Assembly: GCA_000002445.1 (NCBI GenBank)
Contig: CP000071.1
Location: 2,048,001 to 2,112,000 of the forward strand
Length of the DNA stretch: 64,000 nucleotides
Origin: Trypanosoma brucei
Taxonomy: Eukaryota
Direction: 5' to 3'
The position numbers are program-made. Positions 7,001 through 16,000 of this stretch are shown here, piece after piece (position 1 is the first letter of the stretch; every line of letters starts with the position of its first letter).

Positions 7001-10000
7001 TTTTGAAACCTCCCACTGCTGGAGAATTGTGCGTTTCTCGACCAATTCGGGGGAAGAAACGAAATAAAGAAGAATTATATAAATATATATATATATATAT
7101 AAAGTGAGATTTTGTGGGTATAACTTGGATATGGATTGTTCAAAAGAATCTGATAGACGGAAGACACTCGCAAAATGACCTCAGTGAAAGTGAACGTGCC
7201 TTACTGTATGTTAGTAAAGAGGGAAACGTAAAGTAGAATTTGAAGTCGAGGAAGAAAAAAGTGAAGAGGCAATGAGTGTGCTAAAAAGAGAGGAAAAGAG
7301 AAGGAGAGTTTAGTTGAGGTAATGATTTTTGTACGGTCGTTAACTTTTATATATTTTACCTTTTTTATTATTATTATTATTTTTTTTTTGTTTACTCTCC
7401 TGGCGCCTCTGTATGTGCTTACTTACCTATTACCCTTTTTGTGTTTACATTCTCCGATTTTCCTAGCGGAGAAAAAAGTGCTTCAACCAAAGGAAGAGAG
7501 AAAGCACGGCACCAAAGCAAAAAGGAAGAAATGAGAGGGAAAAAAATGTAGTAATTGTTTGAAGTTAAGAAAAAAGAAAGTTTCAAGGTGCGTTGCGGTG
7601 CCTCAACTTTACCGGGTGGTTGAAAGGGAATAGCGCCTTTTTCTTTTTTTTTTTTGTTTGTGGCTCTCTTTTTCCAGACCATTTGTTAGAAACGGAAACA
7701 GTAGGTACAGTCCTGCTATTTTTTTTTTCATTGTGTTGATGTGGTTTTCCTTATTTCATTCCACTAACTCCCAACACTCTCCATCCTGGTCCAAATGAGA
7801 AGAACAAGGTGTCGAAAGCATTTTTTTAAAAAAAAACTACTATCAAGCGAAACTATTGCAACTGTTTCTGTCCCACTTTATTAATCCAATCCCATTTTAT
7901 GTTTTAGTATACGGTTAGGATCAATATCATGTGGTGTCGTGATGGGGAATCTGTGCGTTCTCATACCCGTAAAACTGAGATGGTGACGGATAGAACAGAA
8001 AATTTGTATTAAGAACCGATACGCAAGCTTTTTTGTACTCTCCACTGCGGCTAAAAAGAGACGCCAGAACAGTCTCGTCGGAACTTGGGATACGAACTTT
8101 CCTTCTGATCGTGTATTATTACCCATGTTGTTCTTGTTCTTATCCTTCTCGCTGCCGTCGCGTAAGCGTTGCGTTTGAAGGGACGGAATTTTCTTGTCAT
8201 TTGGAATCATGCGATTTAATGGCGGAGGTTGTTGGTGACTTCATATGTATTCGCTATGAATGACTGCATGTGGTTTATGCATCTCCATGTCACTCACATA
8301 GTGCCTGAGTAGATGCTCCATCACCGCATTTCGCCGGCACGAAATGACGGCAATAGCGTAATGTGGTAATCGCCGTTGCACCTTTACCTCTGGAATGTAA
8401 CCCGTTCCCCTAACACATCCGTCTTTGTTGCTGTCCCTCATGTTTTTTTTCTCCACGATGTCCTTTAGATTAGGGCAGCTTTATGAACGCACTAAGCGGG
8501 AAGTTCACATGCGCTGTCCTACTAACTAGTGACCCTTCTGCGGTGGGATCATCGACCAAGGTTTCGGTAGGGGTTCAAAATATTGCAGTAGTCCTTCAGC
8601 ACCAGGAAAATGATATTCCACTGATAGAATCCGTTGCTTCACATATTCAGCGTTTCTGCGCTATATACAATATATCATGCGTCGACTGCGGCCGTGACAT
8701 CGCAAGTTTGTTGAAGGAGTCTGCACATGTTGTAGTCGTTCGCTGCGAGGATCGTGCAGCGACTGGGGAAGTTTCCACTCAGCTGCTGCAGCAGACAAGT
8801 GAACCAATTGTTATTGTGTTGGAGATTGACTGCAGCTCCCCCTCGAAATGGGATATCAGAGATAGTGAATCAAACAGTGGATGGAAATGGCTGCAACCCA
8901 CACCAAGTTGTTTGGCTGAGTTGCAGAAGCATGGCGGTTGCAGCAGTGGGGTATGGCTCCAGGCGGCAATGAGATGCTCAAAACCGGTCGTGCGGGTGCA
9001 GCTGCCACCGTCATCACAAACGTCAGTACCGTGGGCTTCAGCCGTGACGTTGGATGGGCTCATGCGGGAAGTGGGGTATAAAGTGGGATGTTTACCGAAA
9101 TACGGCTCGTAGTTGTTGATCACAGCAAAGAATGCCGTACAATTGAAAAAATCTCGGACTAAGCGGACTTTCCTGGTGTACCGCCACCAAAGGGGCGCGT
9201 GTATCCGCTATCTTCACTTTTTGCACTCCTTGCTTTCCTCACACAGAGGTCGCGTTTAAAGGCTGGGACGTCCATCCGTAGTGACTATCAGGGCGTCCCT
9301 TTCTCTAATTCCACGGATGAAAATGCGTTTTGCGGGTTGGCGCACTTTGGTGTGATGTGCTGGACGCAAATATGCCCTGCGCGTCCGTCTCCTGAGCAGC
9401 CCTTGCTGGAGCAGCAACAAGATCTGTCGAACGATCCCCTTCTCTTACGTTCTCTAGGGATGAGGACAAGGCGTCGTAGGTCACAGGTTTATGCTTTCAC
9501 ACTTGCAGTCCTCATTGCAATATCATGTTTGGTAGTGTGTTGTGATCTCTTCTTTCTTAGCGTTATCCATTTACCGTTAGAAGAGGAAAAGGCGTCTGCA
9601 CCTATCAACGTGGACGAGTGCCTGAGGCTCACTGCCCCGAGCACCGTCAGCATTTGGCAAGAGCGTGAGTTTCTAGTGATTGTTGGCATACCCTCTGTTG
9701 ATAGGGACGAGTGGCAGAAGCGACGGAACCTTCAACGGCGGACTTGTTGGCAATACGCTGGCGTGGCTACCTTAGAAAACAACTTTACAGGTGAGCTTCT
9801 CCCGCTGTACCTCCTCGCACCACATCAATTAAACGGGTACGAAATCTCAGAATCGCTGCGGGATGAGGCTTCACGAACAAATGACGTGGTTATGCTTCCA
9901 ACCAATGATGTGTGCTCGTTTTCACGAAGGAAAATTGGTGAAGGTGGAAGCTGGGGAGTTGAGTCAGAGCTTGTGATGAGCCGCAAGACCTTCCTTTGGC

Positions 10001-13000: not shown

Positions 13001-16000
13001 GGGACGAGTGGCAGAAGCGACGGAACCTTCAACGGCGGACTTGTTGGCAATACGCTGGCGTGGCTACCTTAGAAAACAACTTTACAGGTGAGCTTCTCCC
13101 GCTGTACCTCCTCGCACCACATCAATTAAACGGGTACGAAATCTCAGAATCGCTGCGGGATGAGGCTTCACGAACAAATGACGTGGTTATGCTTCCAACC
13201 AATGATGTGTGTTCTCTCGCACGAAGGAAAATTGGTGAAGGTGGAAGCTGGGGAGTTGAGTCAGAGCTTGTGATGAGCCGCAAGACCTTCCTTTGGCTTC
13301 AGTTTGCCGTTACCGCCTTTCCAAATGTAAGTTATATTGTGAAAGGTGACGACGATGTGTTTGTCCGTGTACCGCAGTATCTCGCGGACCTCCGTGTGAT
13401 GCCTCGTAATGGATTATATATGGGCCGTGTCTATGGTGCCACATTCTTCTGGAGGTCGGGTGGGATACCATTCGCTGCAGGATACTTCACTACCTTTTCC
13501 AGGGATGTTGCAGAAGCTGTTGCCTCCTACAGGCCTCTTGAACGACTCTTGAAGGCACCCTACTCCATATGGCGTATGAGGCAGTACCTTTCCATGAGTG
13601 TGTTGCATGAGGATGTAATGAGTGCTTTAGTGCTGCAAGATAAGATCAGGTATAAGGGCCTGATTATTGTTGACGCCGCACCTTGTCACTTTCATAACGC
13701 AGGCAAGGGTGATGTTGCGCAACACTTTACGAGTGTGTGTCTTCCGCCATGTGATGGAAAGTTAGGGCCATTTCTACGCACGATTCGCCGGCGTTTTGGT
13801 GGAACGGCAAAGCTTCCTTGTTGGCCTGAGGAAGAGAATAATTATTTAACCAGAAATTCACCGGTATATATCGTTTACGTTATCCATCCAGTTAAACCGT
13901 AGAGTCAAAAGTATTGTCTCTAATGCGTTGATGTGTGTGTCCACACGGCTCTAACTGCTCTTCGTTAACTGTTGTTTGGTCAGTAAATGTCGCGGAGTGT
14001 AATGGCATGAGGGCATAATTGTACATCTTTACTAATTTTGATGGGTGTGCTGGGCGATGGCGTGGGCATGTCCCTGAACGGTAGTATTATTTTGACGTTG
14101 AGTCTAATTAGATGACGTTTTTTTTCCCAGTGGTTGATGTTGGCAGCTATCTTGAACGGTGGTCGACTTCCTTTTAAGGTACCAATTCAGTCGACCCGAC
14201 GGTAGGCTTTTAAGCAGTAGCACCAGGATGGTCAATAGTCGCTGGTTGGAACGACTTTTTCCTCTGTTTAGTTATGTGTCTCAGGTGCCACCTCCAAATG
14301 TTTTACTTTCTATTGTGCCCTACCACATTTTTGATCTGGTTGCAAAAGGTGATTGGTGCGGTTGTTTGGTGAGTTGCGTGCCGACTACGTGAATGCCCCT
14401 ACGTGATGTGTTGCTCCCTTATTTTTTAGACCTGTTATTTCTGTAAGAGGTTACTGGGGGTGCACTTGTCCATCCACCGATGACACCAATTCATTCACAT
14501 TGGGGCAACCGGCGTGCCTCTTGTGGGAGGGCAGCCGACCGACTTCTACGTTCGTTTTTGTATGGTAGAGTGTGCTGTCATTTGGCGCTGTCCTAAATAT
14601 AAAGTCCGGGATTCGGTGGCTGGCTGCGCTTATCCGTTGCGTATGCTCATGTATTATGTATGCGTGTTCCTTCACTTCCTTTTACGTGGTATTGCACCCT
14701 GTTGGATGCGCTGTTAGGTGAGGTGTTCTTTTTTCTTTTTCTTTTGTAAAGTGTTAATCTGTCTTATATCATTCAGCTTATGCCTCAGGTGGATCTCGTT
14801 AAACTCTTGCAAATATGTGTGAATGGCGCTTTGGCTGCGCAGCAGTACATTCTGCTCGATCTGATTCAGCTTCGCAGTTTGGAAGTATCCCGTCGTGACG
14901 TGTGTATAGCGGATTTGGACCAGCAGGAAATTGCGCGGTTGCGTGCCCGTCTGAAAGCTGCGGTTTCGGTTGATGTGAAGGGGAAGCTCGAGTATAAAGA
15001 GGGTGGCTCCGTTGATGACCTCGTGACAACTGCGGATGTCGTCACTCAGGGCTTAATGGAGCGCCTCCTCGCTGAGGCATTCCCGGATACGCCCTTTACT
15101 ATTATTGGTGAAGAAGAAGCAACAACAACTGATGCCATTAAAATACAGGTGGAACGTTGTGTGGAAGCGTTCCGTGACGTGAACGCCGTAGCACCACTGC
15201 AAAAAGAACTTGAGGCACATGCCTCCAGTGATTCGCGGCACGTGTCAGCATCAACCGTGGAGGAGCTCCGCGCTCGCGTTGGGGTATTCATTGACCCAAT
15301 CGATGCCACAAGCTGCTTCGTTGACGGGACGTGGGGTGCCCCAATGACGCTTGTTGGGATCACAGTTGACGGTGTACCGGTTGCCGGTGTTTCCAATCGT
15401 TTTTTTTACAGCACTGTTGATGACTTAACTTCGGGCGGTAATGCCGGATGTACGGGTCTATCATACGTGTGGAATGACCCCTCTGCGGGACCTTTTATTG
15501 TGCACGAGGGACGGCTGGCGACTCCTCTTTGGTCACTCGGAAGGAAGACGACCAGCAACCTTGCCATGCTACGTGTTATTCGTTCTGGCACAACCAGTAA
15601 TAAGCGCTTCGAGCAGTTGTTGGCCCGACTGCAGCCCGTTGAGCCTCGAAGTGCTCGGGGCGCTGGCAATAAGTTGATGCTTCTTGTTGTCTCTATGCTC
15701 GCGGCATCAGATGGGGCGGCTGCCGCTGCATGCGACGTATTCTTGGCCCCACCTAACAGCATCAGCAAGTGGGACACATGCGCTGCTCACGCTTTCCTTC
15801 TGGCGCTAGGAGGTGATATGCGTACACTGCGGGGAGAACTCATCCGGTACCCGCTGCGAGGCACAACTAATCTCAAAACCCTTCCTGACGGGGTCGTTGG
15901 TTTGACGCGATGGTCGATGACGGAAGGCCTTCGGCGTTTGGGATGGCAGTAGTCGCTACAGGAAATCAATAAATCGTTATTGCCCCTTTTTAAAAAAGAA

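What the first reader, a model, noticed from the sequence alone, without database searches (positions are those of the whole stretch)
9355..13902. GT31-like glycosyltransferase tandem array: identical catalytic cores, swapped membrane anchors, and a chimeric truncated third copy
Three copies share an essentially identical approximately 735-bp core including the DDDVFV DxD motif. Copies 1 and 2 have completely different type-II signal-anchor/stem regions and divergent C-termini. That pattern fits concerted evolution (gene conversion) of the catalytic module, with diversification of the targeting or acceptor-specificity ends. Copy 3 begins exactly at the stem/core junction with no ATG or anchor. 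After 'HFHNAGK' it runs into unrelated sequence, giving a novel 60-aa tail. It is a recombination relic, a silent donor cassette, or a gene whose 5' exon equivalent lies elsewhere.
Basis: seen in the sequence. Interest (0 to 1): 0.55.

Follow-up and report, generated by a model that had tools for sequence, protein, structure and literature searches.

The report
Trypanosome glycosyltransferase pair plus truncated pseudogene
This is an already annotated tandem pair of Trypanosoma brucei Golgi glycosyltransferase genes, whose catalytic cores are kept near-identical by gene conversion while their ends have diverged, followed by a headless and tailless pseudogene copy that still exchanges sequence with them; it is a clean example of a known process, not a new one.

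Summary
The window is T. brucei brucei TREU927 chromosome 8.

[quoted passage not shown] They belong to CAZy GT67, a kinetoplastid offshoot of the beta3GT/GT31 superfamily.
- **Shared core:** about 733 bp (9635-10367) has dS of about 0.03. The anchor/stem and the last ~70 codons are saturated (dS ≥1.5), and the C-terminus is under purifying selection (dN/dS ~0.19).
- **Copy 3** (12869-13707) is an 839-bp internal fragment, 99% identical to copy 1. It begins inside copy 1's stem, not exactly at the stem/core junction. It has no anchor and no in-frame ATG before 13189, and it ends in 64 unrelated codons.
- **Other assemblies:** the three-copy layout is identical in T. b. gambiense. The copy 3 3' junction is confirmed in a T. 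equiperdum contig.
- **Gene conversion:** core sites are fixed by species across all three copies and never follow orthology, so conversion is ongoing and includes copy 3. The syntenic T. congolense pair shows the same architecture.

Concerted evolution and chimaeric copies in trypanosome tandem arrays and in this family are published. The finding is correct but ordinary.

The parts
9460..10650 (+). Copy 1 CDS, 396 aa. Type II membrane GT67 glycosyltransferase, XP_847544.1. The locus tag Tb927.8.7140 is inferred from neighbouring gene numbers.
   Evidence: 100% match to the NCBI TREU927 protein. The GT67 motifs WG165, YIVKGDDD193-200 and EDVMTA285-290 are present. The AF2 model's best matches are human B3GNT2, B3GalT5 and B3GalT6.
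9502..9558 (+). Copy 1 signal anchor (residues 15-33, LAVLIAISCLVVCCDLFFL), preceded by MRTRRRRS.
   Evidence: Best 19-aa Kyte-Doolittle window, mean 2.79. The AF2 model has a helix at residues 7-35.
11144..12274 (+). Copy 2 CDS, 376 aa. GT67 glycosyltransferase, XP_847545.1 (inferred Tb927.8.7150).
   Evidence: Exact match to the NCBI TREU927 protein. Motifs WG171, YIVKGDDD199-206 and EDVMSA291-296 are present.
11192..11248 (+). Copy 2 signal anchor (residues 17-35, ASVLVLTTTFTMALIIIMW). It is unrelated in sequence to the copy 1 anchor.
   Evidence: Kyte-Doolittle mean 2.05. The N-terminal segment is 17% identical to copy 1.
9635..10367 (+). Homogenised core in copy 1 (about 733 bp; from just before beta-strand 1 to just after the EDVM motif).
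   Evidence: Sliding identity of 0.96-1.00 between all three copies, with one 0.90 window at the 9915-9922 patch. dS is 0.03 here against 1.5-1.7 in the ends.
11337..12069 (+). Homogenised core in copy 2 (offset +1702 from copy 1).
12932..13664 (+). Homogenised core in copy 3 (offset +3297 from copy 1).
12869..13707 (+). Copy 3: an 839-bp internal fragment of the copy 1 type, with no anchor, no start codon and no C-terminal domain. Both junctions are sharp.
   Evidence: 99.0% identical to 9572-10410. Junctions are shown base by base. The same fragment is present in T. b. gambiense. The 3' junction is confirmed in T. equiperdum OVI. No TREU927 protein is deposited for it.
13708..13902 (+). Read-through tail of copy 3: 64 codons plus a stop, unrelated to the family.
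   Evidence: No significant match to any family C-terminus by tblastn, profile HMM or Smith-Waterman with shuffles. No Pfam hit.
10051..10059 (+). DDD (DxD metal/UDP-sugar motif) of copy 1. The equivalents are 11753-11761 in copy 2 and 13348-13356 in copy 3.
   Evidence: The regex hit is. The motif aligns to KGDDDVFV of human B3GNT2 in a profile search of the PDB.
13212..13219 (+). Clustered variant patch (CSLAR instead of CSFSR; 5 changed bases at 13212-13219). It is shared only by TREU927 copies 2 (11617-11624) and 3. A second shared variant lies at 13622-13623 / 12027-12028.
   Evidence: T. equiperdum OVI copy 3 has the first patch but not the second. This points to short conversion tracts that are polymorphic between strains.
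12741..12815 (+). 41-nt pyrimidine-rich tract followed by AG dinucleotides at 12794, 12801 and 12815. This is a possible trans-splice acceptor signal 55-75 nt upstream of copy 3.
   Evidence: My own scan. This is a consensus-type prediction only, not evidence of use. Short upstream ORFs start at 12816 and 12831.

Best explanation
**What is there.** Two functional, anciently duplicated GT67 (beta3GT-superfamily, GT-A fold, DxD) Golgi glycosyltransferase genes sit in tandem on T. brucei chromosome 8. They lie between a 209-aa hypothetical gene and the inositol polyphosphate 1-phosphatase gene.

**How the pair evolves.** Recurrent homologous recombination (non-reciprocal gene conversion) keeps the ~733-bp segment encoding the nucleotide-sugar-binding and catalytic core practically identical. 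Two parts of each gene have fallen below the identity needed for conversion and evolve independently: the N-terminal cytoplasmic tail, signal anchor and stem, and the last ~70-90 residues. The C-terminal part is under purifying selection.

**Inferred functional result.** The parasite has two isoenzymes with one shared donor/catalytic module. They differ in their membrane/stem module and in their C-terminal module, which probably shapes acceptor binding.

**Copy 3.** This is a non-coding relic: an 839-bp internal piece of a copy 1-type gene that lacks anchor, start codon and C-terminal domain. Its reading frame stays open only because the functional neighbours keep overwriting it or exchanging with it.

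**Shown here:** the anatomy, the dS contrast, post-speciation homogenisation that includes copy 3, conservation of the layout in T. b. gambiense, the parallel design in T. congolense, and the fold.

**Inferred:** Golgi location, enzymatic activity, the acceptor role of the C-terminus, and that copy 3 is not translated.
For: [quoted passage not shown] Neighbours match published gene numbers: SQS/farnesyltransferase is Tb927.8.7120, IP1Pase is Tb927.8.7170, and Tb927.8.7140 is a glycosyltransferase paralogous to chr4 Tb927.4.5240.

**Family and fold.**
- PF01762 match at 26 bits against a cut-off of 23.
- All three GT67 motifs quoted in PMC9472816 are present.
- The AF2 model (pLDDT 70.7) best matches human B3GNT2, B3GalT5 and B3GalT6 at E of 1e-9 to 3e-11.
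- The DDD motif aligns to B3GNT2 KGDDDVFV.

**Gene conversion.**
- dS is 0.03 in the core, 1.5 in the N-terminus and 1.7 in the C-terminus. C-terminal dN/dS is about 0.19.
- In the strict core, 0 variable sites follow orthology between T. b. brucei and T. b. gambiense. Three sites (9658, 9876, 9942) are fixed by species in all three copies, and the rest are partly homogenised.
- TREU927 copies 2 and 3 share two clustered multi-base variants that are absent from copy 1 and from all gambiense copies.
- T. equiperdum copy 3 differs from TREU927 copy 3 at exactly the paralogue-informative sites.
- The syntenic T. congolense GT-GT-IP1Pase locus has a ~720-bp core that is ~100% identical, with ends at 33-55% nt identity.

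**Copy 3 as a relic.**
- No anchor, in-frame stop at 12817, and no in-frame ATG before 13189.
- The tail is unrelated to the family.
- No TREU927 protein is deposited for it. The gambiense annotation calls only a 237-aa internal ORF.

**Literature.** Chimaeric copies occur in 21 of 47 T. brucei tandem arrays (PMC1855330). Concerted evolution is reported in UGT lineages 1 and 7 (PMC5853035).
Against: - No expression, localisation or activity data were available for these genes here.
- A pyrimidine tract with downstream AGs lies just upstream of copy 3. A processed transcript is therefore possible, and T. b. gambiense annotators did call a 237-aa ORF.
- The direction of exchange between copy 3 and copy 2 cannot be determined.
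- End segments of the T. brucei and T. congolense genes do not pair up as clear orthologues. The age of the duplication therefore rests on saturated dS, not on trans-specific end types.
- How copy 3 arose is unresolved. It could be a truncated full copy or an inserted fragment. No GT remnant is detectable in its flanks, and T. congolense has only ~170 bp between the second GT and the phosphatase gene.
Confidence: 0.85

Rival explanations
1. Copy 3 is kept by selection as a silent donor cassette. It acts as a reservoir that feeds variant core sequence into the expressed genes or allows new chimaeric transferases to form.
For: Copy 3 demonstrably takes part in conversion. TREU927 copies 2 and 3 share clustered variants. 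Copy 3 has been retained since before the brucei/gambiense split. One assembly shows a copy 1::copy 3 hybrid. Chimaeric STT3 genes arising under lectin selection are reported in the GT67 review.
Against: The core it could donate is nearly identical to the recipients, so it stores almost no diversity. Its unique parts, the flanks and tail, are not family sequence. Passive homogenisation of a neighbouring pseudogene explains everything seen. T. congolense has no equivalent at that position.
Confidence: 0.06
2. Copy 3 is an expressed gene. It would make a soluble, anchorless protein, either 237 aa from ATG 13189 or a longer product from a non-AUG start, with a regulatory or dominant-negative role.
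For: The open frame of 360 codons is uninterrupted. A possible splice-acceptor signal lies upstream. A 237-aa ORF is annotated in T. b. gambiense. The DxD and EDVM motifs are retained.
Against: The 237-aa product would lack the anchor and roughly the first third of the GT-A domain (strands at residues 71-76 and 113-119 of the model), as well as the whole C-terminal domain. Two to four upstream ATGs precede 13189. The intact frame is expected from conversion alone. There is no TREU927 protein record.
Confidence: 0.05
3. The near-identity of the cores reflects a very recent duplication or domain shuffling plus strong purifying selection, not ongoing gene conversion.
For: The core encodes the most conserved part of the enzyme, and family-invariant residues cluster there.
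Against: Synonymous sites are also identical: core dS is 0.03 against more than 1.5 in the adjacent codons. Species-specific substitutions are shared by all three paralogues in each subspecies, and selection cannot produce that pattern. The three-copy layout predates the subspecies split.
Confidence: 0.02
4. Assembly artefact: the third copy, or the identity of the cores, comes from misassembly of repeats.
For: Short-read assemblies break at the repeat. The OVI contig starts inside the core. Logan contigs end at 9633. One assembly shows a single hybrid copy.
Against: TREU927 and DAL972 agree on three copies, each with unique flanks and copy-specific SNPs. The OVI contig independently crosses the junction between the copy 3 core and its tail. 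Collapse would remove copies, not create a fragment with two unique junctions.
Confidence: 0.02

Closest known systems
CAZy GT67 family of trypanosome UDP-Gal/UDP-GlcNAc-dependent beta-glycosyltransferases (TbGT3, TbGT8, TbGT10, TbGT11, TbGT15), lineage 7 of Pereira & Jackson
   Same: It has the same three sequence motifs, type II topology, kinetoplastid restriction and NCBI product name. The chr4 paralogue Tb927.4.5240 is placed in lineage 7 together with TbGT3. Concerted evolution of paralogues in lineages 1 and 7 is already reported.
   Different: The activity, donor and acceptor of these two chromosome 8 genes have not been determined. Assignment of the chromosome 8 genes to lineage 7 is my inference, based on 51% identity to the chr4 gene and the chr4/chr8 duplicon paper. 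It was not read from the published tree.
Human GT31 beta3-transferases (B3GNT2, B3GalT5, B3GalT6)
   Same: They are the best structural matches to the model, covering about 300-320 aligned columns. They share the KGDDDVFV donor motif and the GT-A fold.
   Different: Sequence identity is only 17-21%. The Pfam GT31 model matches only a 37-residue stretch, at 26 bits. CAZy classes the trypanosome enzymes separately as GT67.
Partial (segmental) gene conversion in T. brucei tandem arrays (Jackson 2007; classic cases are the PGK and hexose-transporter arrays)
   Same: Tandem paralogues have homogenised segments next to divergent segments. Duplicates are more alike within a species than orthologues are between species. 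Divergent regions 'escape conversion', as that paper discusses.
   Different: That survey lists a UDP-GlcNAc-dependent glycosyltransferase array (Tb30), which by its position in the list is probably the chr4 array. I found no text describing this chr8 array, its tract boundaries or its pseudogene.
Pseudogenes homogenised by neighbouring functional paralogues (for example human CYP21A1P/CYP21A2 or the globin pseudogenes; from general knowledge)
   Same: A truncated, non-coding copy stays highly similar to functional neighbours through gene conversion, and can take part in unequal crossover that yields hybrid genes.
   Different: No phenotype or disease-like consequence is known here. The single hybrid seen in one assembly may be an assembly collapse.

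Membership tests
CAZy GT67 (kinetoplastid beta3GT-derived glycosyltransferases) | Motif 1: WG | tested here: met
   WG is at residue 165 in copy 1 and 171 in copy 2, and is present in the copy 3 frame. The motif definition is quoted from PMC9472816.
CAZy GT67 (kinetoplastid beta3GT-derived glycosyltransferases) | Motif 2: Y(I,V,F)xKxDDD (DxD donor/metal motif) | tested here: met
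   YIVKGDDD is present in all three copies. It aligns to B3GNT2 FKGDDDVFV.
CAZy GT67 (kinetoplastid beta3GT-derived glycosyltransferases) | Motif 3: ED(A/V/I/L/M)(M/L)x(G/A) | tested here: met
   EDVMTA in copy 1 and EDVMSA in copies 2 and 3.
CAZy GT67 (kinetoplastid beta3GT-derived glycosyltransferases) | Type II membrane topology (short cytoplasmic tail, one signal anchor, lumenal catalytic domain) | tested here: met
   Met for copies 1 and 2: a basic N-terminus followed by a 19-aa hydrophobic window (Kyte-Doolittle 2.79 and 2.05), and a modelled N-terminal helix. Not met for copy 3, whose best window scores 1.25 and lies inside the catalytic domain.
CAZy GT67 (kinetoplastid beta3GT-derived glycosyltransferases) | Homologues restricted to kinetoplastids | tested here: met
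   All 24 hits at E ≤ 1e-10 are Trypanosoma proteins: brucei, congolense, theileri and grayi. The search is word-seeded and capped, so distant relatives could have been missed.
CAZy GT67 (kinetoplastid beta3GT-derived glycosyltransferases) | UDP-Gal or UDP-GlcNAc inverting beta-transferase activity | not testable with these tools
   This needs enzyme assays or glycan analysis of null mutants. No paper in the held library characterises these two genes.
GT31 / Pfam PF01762 Galactosyl_T | Whole-protein score above Pfam's gathering cut-off, with coverage of the domain | tested here: inconclusive
   The score of 26-26.5 bits is above the 23-bit cut-off, but only profile positions 64-101 of 195 are matched. 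Fold search supports superfamily-level kinship. CAZy places the trypanosome genes in GT67, not GT31.
GT-A fold glycosyltransferase | Predicted structure superposes on solved GT-A enzymes | tested here: met
   Foldseek probability is 1.00 and E is 3e-11 to B3GNT2 (7jhl), with TM-score 0.47-0.56. The model is of moderate quality (pLDDT 70.7, pTM 0.71).
Concerted evolution by gene conversion in a tandem array | Paralogues within a genome are more alike than positional orthologues between genomes, in conserved synteny | tested here: met
   Three species-fixed sites are shared by all three copies, and no orthology-patterned site exists in the 733-bp core. The T. b. brucei and T. b. gambiense loci are collinear. 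The T. congolense syntenic pair has a 100% identical core that is only ~68% identical to the T. brucei core.
Concerted evolution by gene conversion in a tandem array | Homogeneity extends to synonymous sites and is discontinuous along the gene | tested here: met
   dS is 0.03 in the core against 1.5 and 1.7 in the ends. Identity drops sharply at both boundaries.
Pseudogene (truncated gene relic) | Lacks the elements needed to make the family's protein (start codon, anchor, complete domain) | tested here: met
   An in-frame stop lies at 12817. The first in-frame ATG is at 13189, which is 107 codons into the homologous region. There is no anchor, and the C-terminal ~75 residues are replaced by unrelated sequence.
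Pseudogene (truncated gene relic) | Not expressed as protein | not testable with these tools
   No RNA-seq, ribosome-profiling or proteome data could be queried. Indirect evidence only: there is no TREU927 protein record.

The most novel reading that the evidence does not exclude
The conversion boundaries are not just where homology happens to run out. Selection would hold them in place across African trypanosomes, so that one shared donor/catalytic module serves two or more distinct anchor and acceptor modules. This would be a conserved modular design, seen independently at the syntenic T. congolense locus and in the chr4 array. Under this reading the truncated copy 3 is a working recombination substrate. 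The single copy 1::copy 3 hybrid in assembly GCA_003543875.1 (from memory, a T. brucei equiperdum strain that no longer passes through tsetse) would then be a real unequal-crossover deletion that inactivated a procyclic-stage glycosyltransferase pair.
Probability: 0.12. Interest if true: 0.5.

Novelty: already known. Interest (0 to 1): 0.22.

Why it matters
Its importance is mainly practical.

- **Read mapping and knock-downs.** The ~730-bp identical core means that RNAi, RIT-seq, RNA-seq and proteomic assignments cannot separate the three copies unless reads or peptides come from the unique ends. One published example is a differentiation-specific fitness defect reported for the Tb927.8.7140 orthologue (PMC6199001). 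Any knock-down of one gene will hit both.
- **Experiment design.** The locus suggests a natural domain-swap experiment for GT67 enzymes: same catalytic core, two different anchors and stems, and two different C-terminal domains. Most GT67 acceptor specificities are still unknown (PMC9472816 says 15 of 20 are uncharacterised).
- **Evolution.** It is a tidy, quantifiable case of segmental concerted evolution that includes a pseudogene. It does not change what is already understood about trypanosome tandem arrays.

Tried and rejected
1. **Decayed flanks of copy 3.** I looked for remnants of an anchor upstream (12275-12868) or a C-terminal domain downstream (13708-14300). I used tblastn of family termini, sensitive blastn against copies 1 and 2, the chr4 locus and T. 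congolense, Smith-Waterman with 500 shuffles and profile HMMs of the family termini against six-frame translations. Nothing was significant. One weak collinear match (13725-13760 vs 10432-10468) was reached by 36 of 500 shuffles.
2. **Orthology of end types between T. brucei and T. congolense.** Per-segment identities do not pair them up. I therefore dropped the claim that the end types are trans-specific.
3. **Minus-strand ORF 12427-12783** (annotated in gambiense). Its only hit is the gambiense 'hypothetical protein, unlikely', and it has no Pfam match. I treat it as spurious.
4. **Rfam scan of 8000-16000.** No RNA family was found.
5. **An ectopic donor for the clustered CSLAR patch.** It is absent from every other locus I fetched. 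The whole T. brucei genome could not be searched.
6. **Fetching the TREU927 chr4 locus and further copies of the TREU927 chr8 locus.** No exact-protein record was available. I used the gambiense chr4 locus instead.
7. **Published gene lists naming Tb927.8.7150 or .7160, or calling copy 3 a pseudogene.** None was found in the held text or supplements.

Full report
**Where the window comes from**

[quoted passage not shown] That protein is XP_847544.1, and the next gene, 11144-12271, is XP_847545.1.

The neighbours fit published gene numbers on chromosome 8:
- An SQS/farnesyltransferase gene lies upstream; Tb927.8.7120 is called farnesyltransferase in PMC2443814.
- An Inositol_P-family gene lies at 14780-15952. 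It matches the inositol polyphosphate 1-phosphatase Tb927.8.7170 (PMC7595295).
- Tb927.8.7140 is listed as a UDP-GlcNAc-dependent glycosyltransferase paralogous to Tb927.4.5240 in the chr4/chr8 duplicon study (PMC2212663).

From these I infer that copies 1, 2 and 3 correspond to Tb927.8.7140, .7150 and .7160. I could not read the database record itself.

**Checking the observation**

All three copies are on the + strand.
- Copy 1 and copy 3 share 9572-10410 = 12869-13707: 839 bp with 8 mismatches and no gaps.
- Copy 1 and copy 2 share 9623-10510 = 11325-12212 at 94%.
- Copy 2 and copy 3 share 11325-12103 = 12920-13698 at 98.3%.
- The stretch that is near-identical in all three is about 9635-10367, or 733 bp.

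Copies 1 and 2 have unrelated N-termini. Each has a basic tail followed by a strongly hydrophobic 19-residue window. Aligned identity is 17% in the anchor/stem and 45% after HFHN.

Copy 3 has sharp junctions on both sides. Its 5' homology begins inside stem sequence specific to copy 1 (PLEEEKASAPINVDECLRL), 51-63 bp before the three-way core. It is therefore a fragment of the copy 1 type rather than a bare core. Its frame is open from 12820 (TGA at 12817) to 13902. The first in-frame ATG is at 13189, and 64 unrelated codons follow HFHNAGK.

**Not an assembly artefact**

- The T. b. gambiense DAL972 locus is collinear at 98.2% over 20.7 kb. It has the same three copies and the same junctions.
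- A T. equiperdum OVI contig starts inside the copy 3 core and runs through the 13707 junction, the tail and the phosphatase gene at 99.8%.
- Short-read assemblies break at the repeat, as expected for a real repeat.

**What the genes are**

- Pfam PF01762 (Galactosyl_T) matches at 26 bits against a 23-bit cut-off, but only around the DxD region.
- The three motifs that the GT67 review gives for the trypanosome family are all present: WG, Y(I,V,F)xKxDDD and ED(A/V/I/L/M)(M/L)x(G/A).
- An AlphaFold2 model built on 19 homologues (pLDDT 70.7, pTM 0.71) has human B3GNT2, B3GalT5 and B3GalT6 as its best solved-structure matches, at E of 3e-11 to 1e-9.
- A profile search of the PDB aligns YIVKGDDDVFV to B3GNT2 FVFKGDDDVFV.

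These are therefore GT-A, DxD, type II membrane enzymes of CAZy GT67, the kinetoplastid offshoot of the beta3GT superfamily. Their closest T. brucei relative outside the array is the chr4 gene (51% identity). That gene's group is placed in lineage 7 with TbGT3, a GPI side-chain beta1-3 galactosyltransferase. The activities of the two chromosome 8 enzymes are unknown.

**Gene conversion rather than recent duplication or selection**

Nei-Gojobori estimates between copies 1 and 2 are as follows:

| Segment | dS | dN |
|---|---|---|
| Core (242 codons) | 0.03 | 0.005 |
| N-terminus | about 1.5 | 1.03 |
| C-terminal 69 codons | about 1.7 | 0.32 |

A fifty-fold jump in synonymous divergence between adjacent parts of the same genes cannot come from selection on the protein. 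The C-terminal dN/dS of about 0.19 shows that both C-termini are constrained.

I compared the three T. b. brucei copies with the three T. b. gambiense copies.
- No variable site in the strict core follows orthology.
- Three sites (9658, 9876, 9942) are fixed by subspecies in all three copies.
- The remaining sites are partly homogenised.
- TREU927 copies 2 and 3 share a clustered patch at 9915-9922 in copy 1 coordinates (CSFSR to CSLAR) and a 2-base change (T to S). Both are absent from copy 1 and from all gambiense copies.
- T. equiperdum copy 3 has the first patch but not the second, and it differs from TREU927 copy 3 at paralogue-informative sites.

Conversion has therefore continued since these lineages separated. 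It acts in short tracts, and it includes the truncated copy.

**The same design elsewhere**

The syntenic T. congolense contig carries GT-GT-IP1Pase, followed by another GT. Its first two genes have a ~720-bp core that is ~100% identical and ends at 33-55% nucleotide identity, with boundaries at equivalent positions. T. congolense paralogues are visible mosaics of N-terminal, core and C-terminal modules. This agrees with the recombination breakpoints reported for T. congolense UGTs.

The T. b. gambiense chr4 array also contains an anchorless copy, which starts at the stem/core junction. I could not show that the end types are orthologous between species.

**How copy 3 most likely works**

It most likely does nothing as a gene. 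It lacks the anchor, the start codon and the C-terminal domain. The only AUG-initiated ORF (237 aa, as annotated in gambiense) would also lack the first third of the GT-A domain. No TREU927 protein is deposited for it. Its intact frame is what conversion from functional neighbours would produce.

A pyrimidine tract with AGs lies 55-75 nt upstream, so a processed, non-productive transcript cannot be excluded.

Its origin is unresolved. I found no family remnant in its flanks, and T. congolense has almost no space at that position. These points favour a rearrangement or an inserted fragment over slow decay of a full gene. From general knowledge, trypanosomes repair breaks by homologous recombination or microhomology-mediated joining and almost never cis-splice. 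This makes a distant 5' exon unlikely.

**Comparison with what is known**

- Jackson (2007) reported chimaeric copies indicating partial gene conversion in 21 of 47 T. brucei tandem arrays. That paper also discussed how less conserved regions escape conversion.
- Pereira and Jackson (2018) reported concerted evolution of paralogues in UGT lineages 1 and 7.
- The genes themselves are annotated and appear in published analyses.

I found no text describing this array's tract boundaries or its pseudogene. That would be a detail within a known phenomenon.

**Verdict**

The feature is an ordinary, already annotated gene array with a homogenised pseudogene. Its main value is practical:
- Reads, RNAi effects and peptides from the shared core cannot be assigned to one gene.
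- The pair offers a natural design for testing which module sets acceptor specificity in GT67 enzymes.

Noticed in passing
L008 (GCA_003543875.1, CM010675.1) 8630-10400, corresponding to window 9113-10410 joined to 13708 onward: This T. brucei-group assembly has only one glycosyltransferase copy at the locus. It is a hybrid of the copy 1 anchor and core joined to the copy 3 tail, about 3.3 kb shorter than TREU927, with a 1-base frameshift at the start of the core. It could be a real unequal-crossover deletion or a collapsed repeat. No gene was called there, nor for the neighbouring phosphatase, which suggests indel errors in the assembly.
   Followed up: partly
L002 (T. congolense CAEQ01002637.1) 110-234 and 4445-4569; genes at 632-1774, 2349-3485, 3658-4431 and 4967-5969: In T. 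congolense the unit [end of the 209-aa upstream gene]-GT-GT-IP1Pase is followed by another copy of the upstream-gene tail and a further GT. The whole block has therefore been re-duplicated. The phosphatase call there is only 257 aa, and the second GT lies only ~170 bp before it.
   Followed up: partly
L004 (T. b. gambiense chr4) 8421-9446: The chr4 paralogous array also has an anchorless glycosyltransferase copy (336 aa). Its homology starts at the stem/core junction, and it is preceded by low-complexity T-rich sequence. It may be a second relic of the same kind or a collapsed array in that assembly.
   Followed up: partly
window 9355-9459: An in-frame ATG at 9355 would add 35 residues to copy 1 ahead of the annotated start at 9460. 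A 12-nt pyrimidine tract with an AG at 9456-9457 sits immediately before 9460, and another tract with AGs lies at 9226-9261. The true start depends on which splice site is used.
   Followed up: no
window 36261-37421: A long tandem repeat lies inside a 1066-aa ORF (34839-38039, + strand); successive self-alignment offsets step by about 24 bp. It has high GC (0.58) and strong GC and AT skew.
   Followed up: no
window 47184-50371 / 51079-54264 and 58761-61281 / 61480-64000: Two further tandem duplications lie on the minus-strand side of the window: 3.2 kb at 98.9% and 2.5 kb at 98.0%. The first pair's units each carry a 361-aa ORF plus a 221-233-aa ORF, and the second pair's units each carry a 748-aa ORF.
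   Followed up: no
window ~44800-45450: Long ORFs are on the + strand up to about 44.8 kb and on the - strand from about 45.4 kb. Cumulative GC skew peaks around 44-46 kb. This looks like a convergent strand-switch region between two polycistronic units.
   Followed up: no
window 2001-4000: An AT-rich stretch (GC 0.30, against 0.42-0.58 in the other 2-kb windows) lies between the first two long ORFs.
   Followed up: no
window 12427-12783 (- strand): A 118-aa ORF lies on the opposite strand between copies 2 and 3. It is annotated in T. b. gambiense as 'hypothetical protein, unlikely', has no other homologue and no Pfam match, and is almost certainly spurious.
   Followed up: yes
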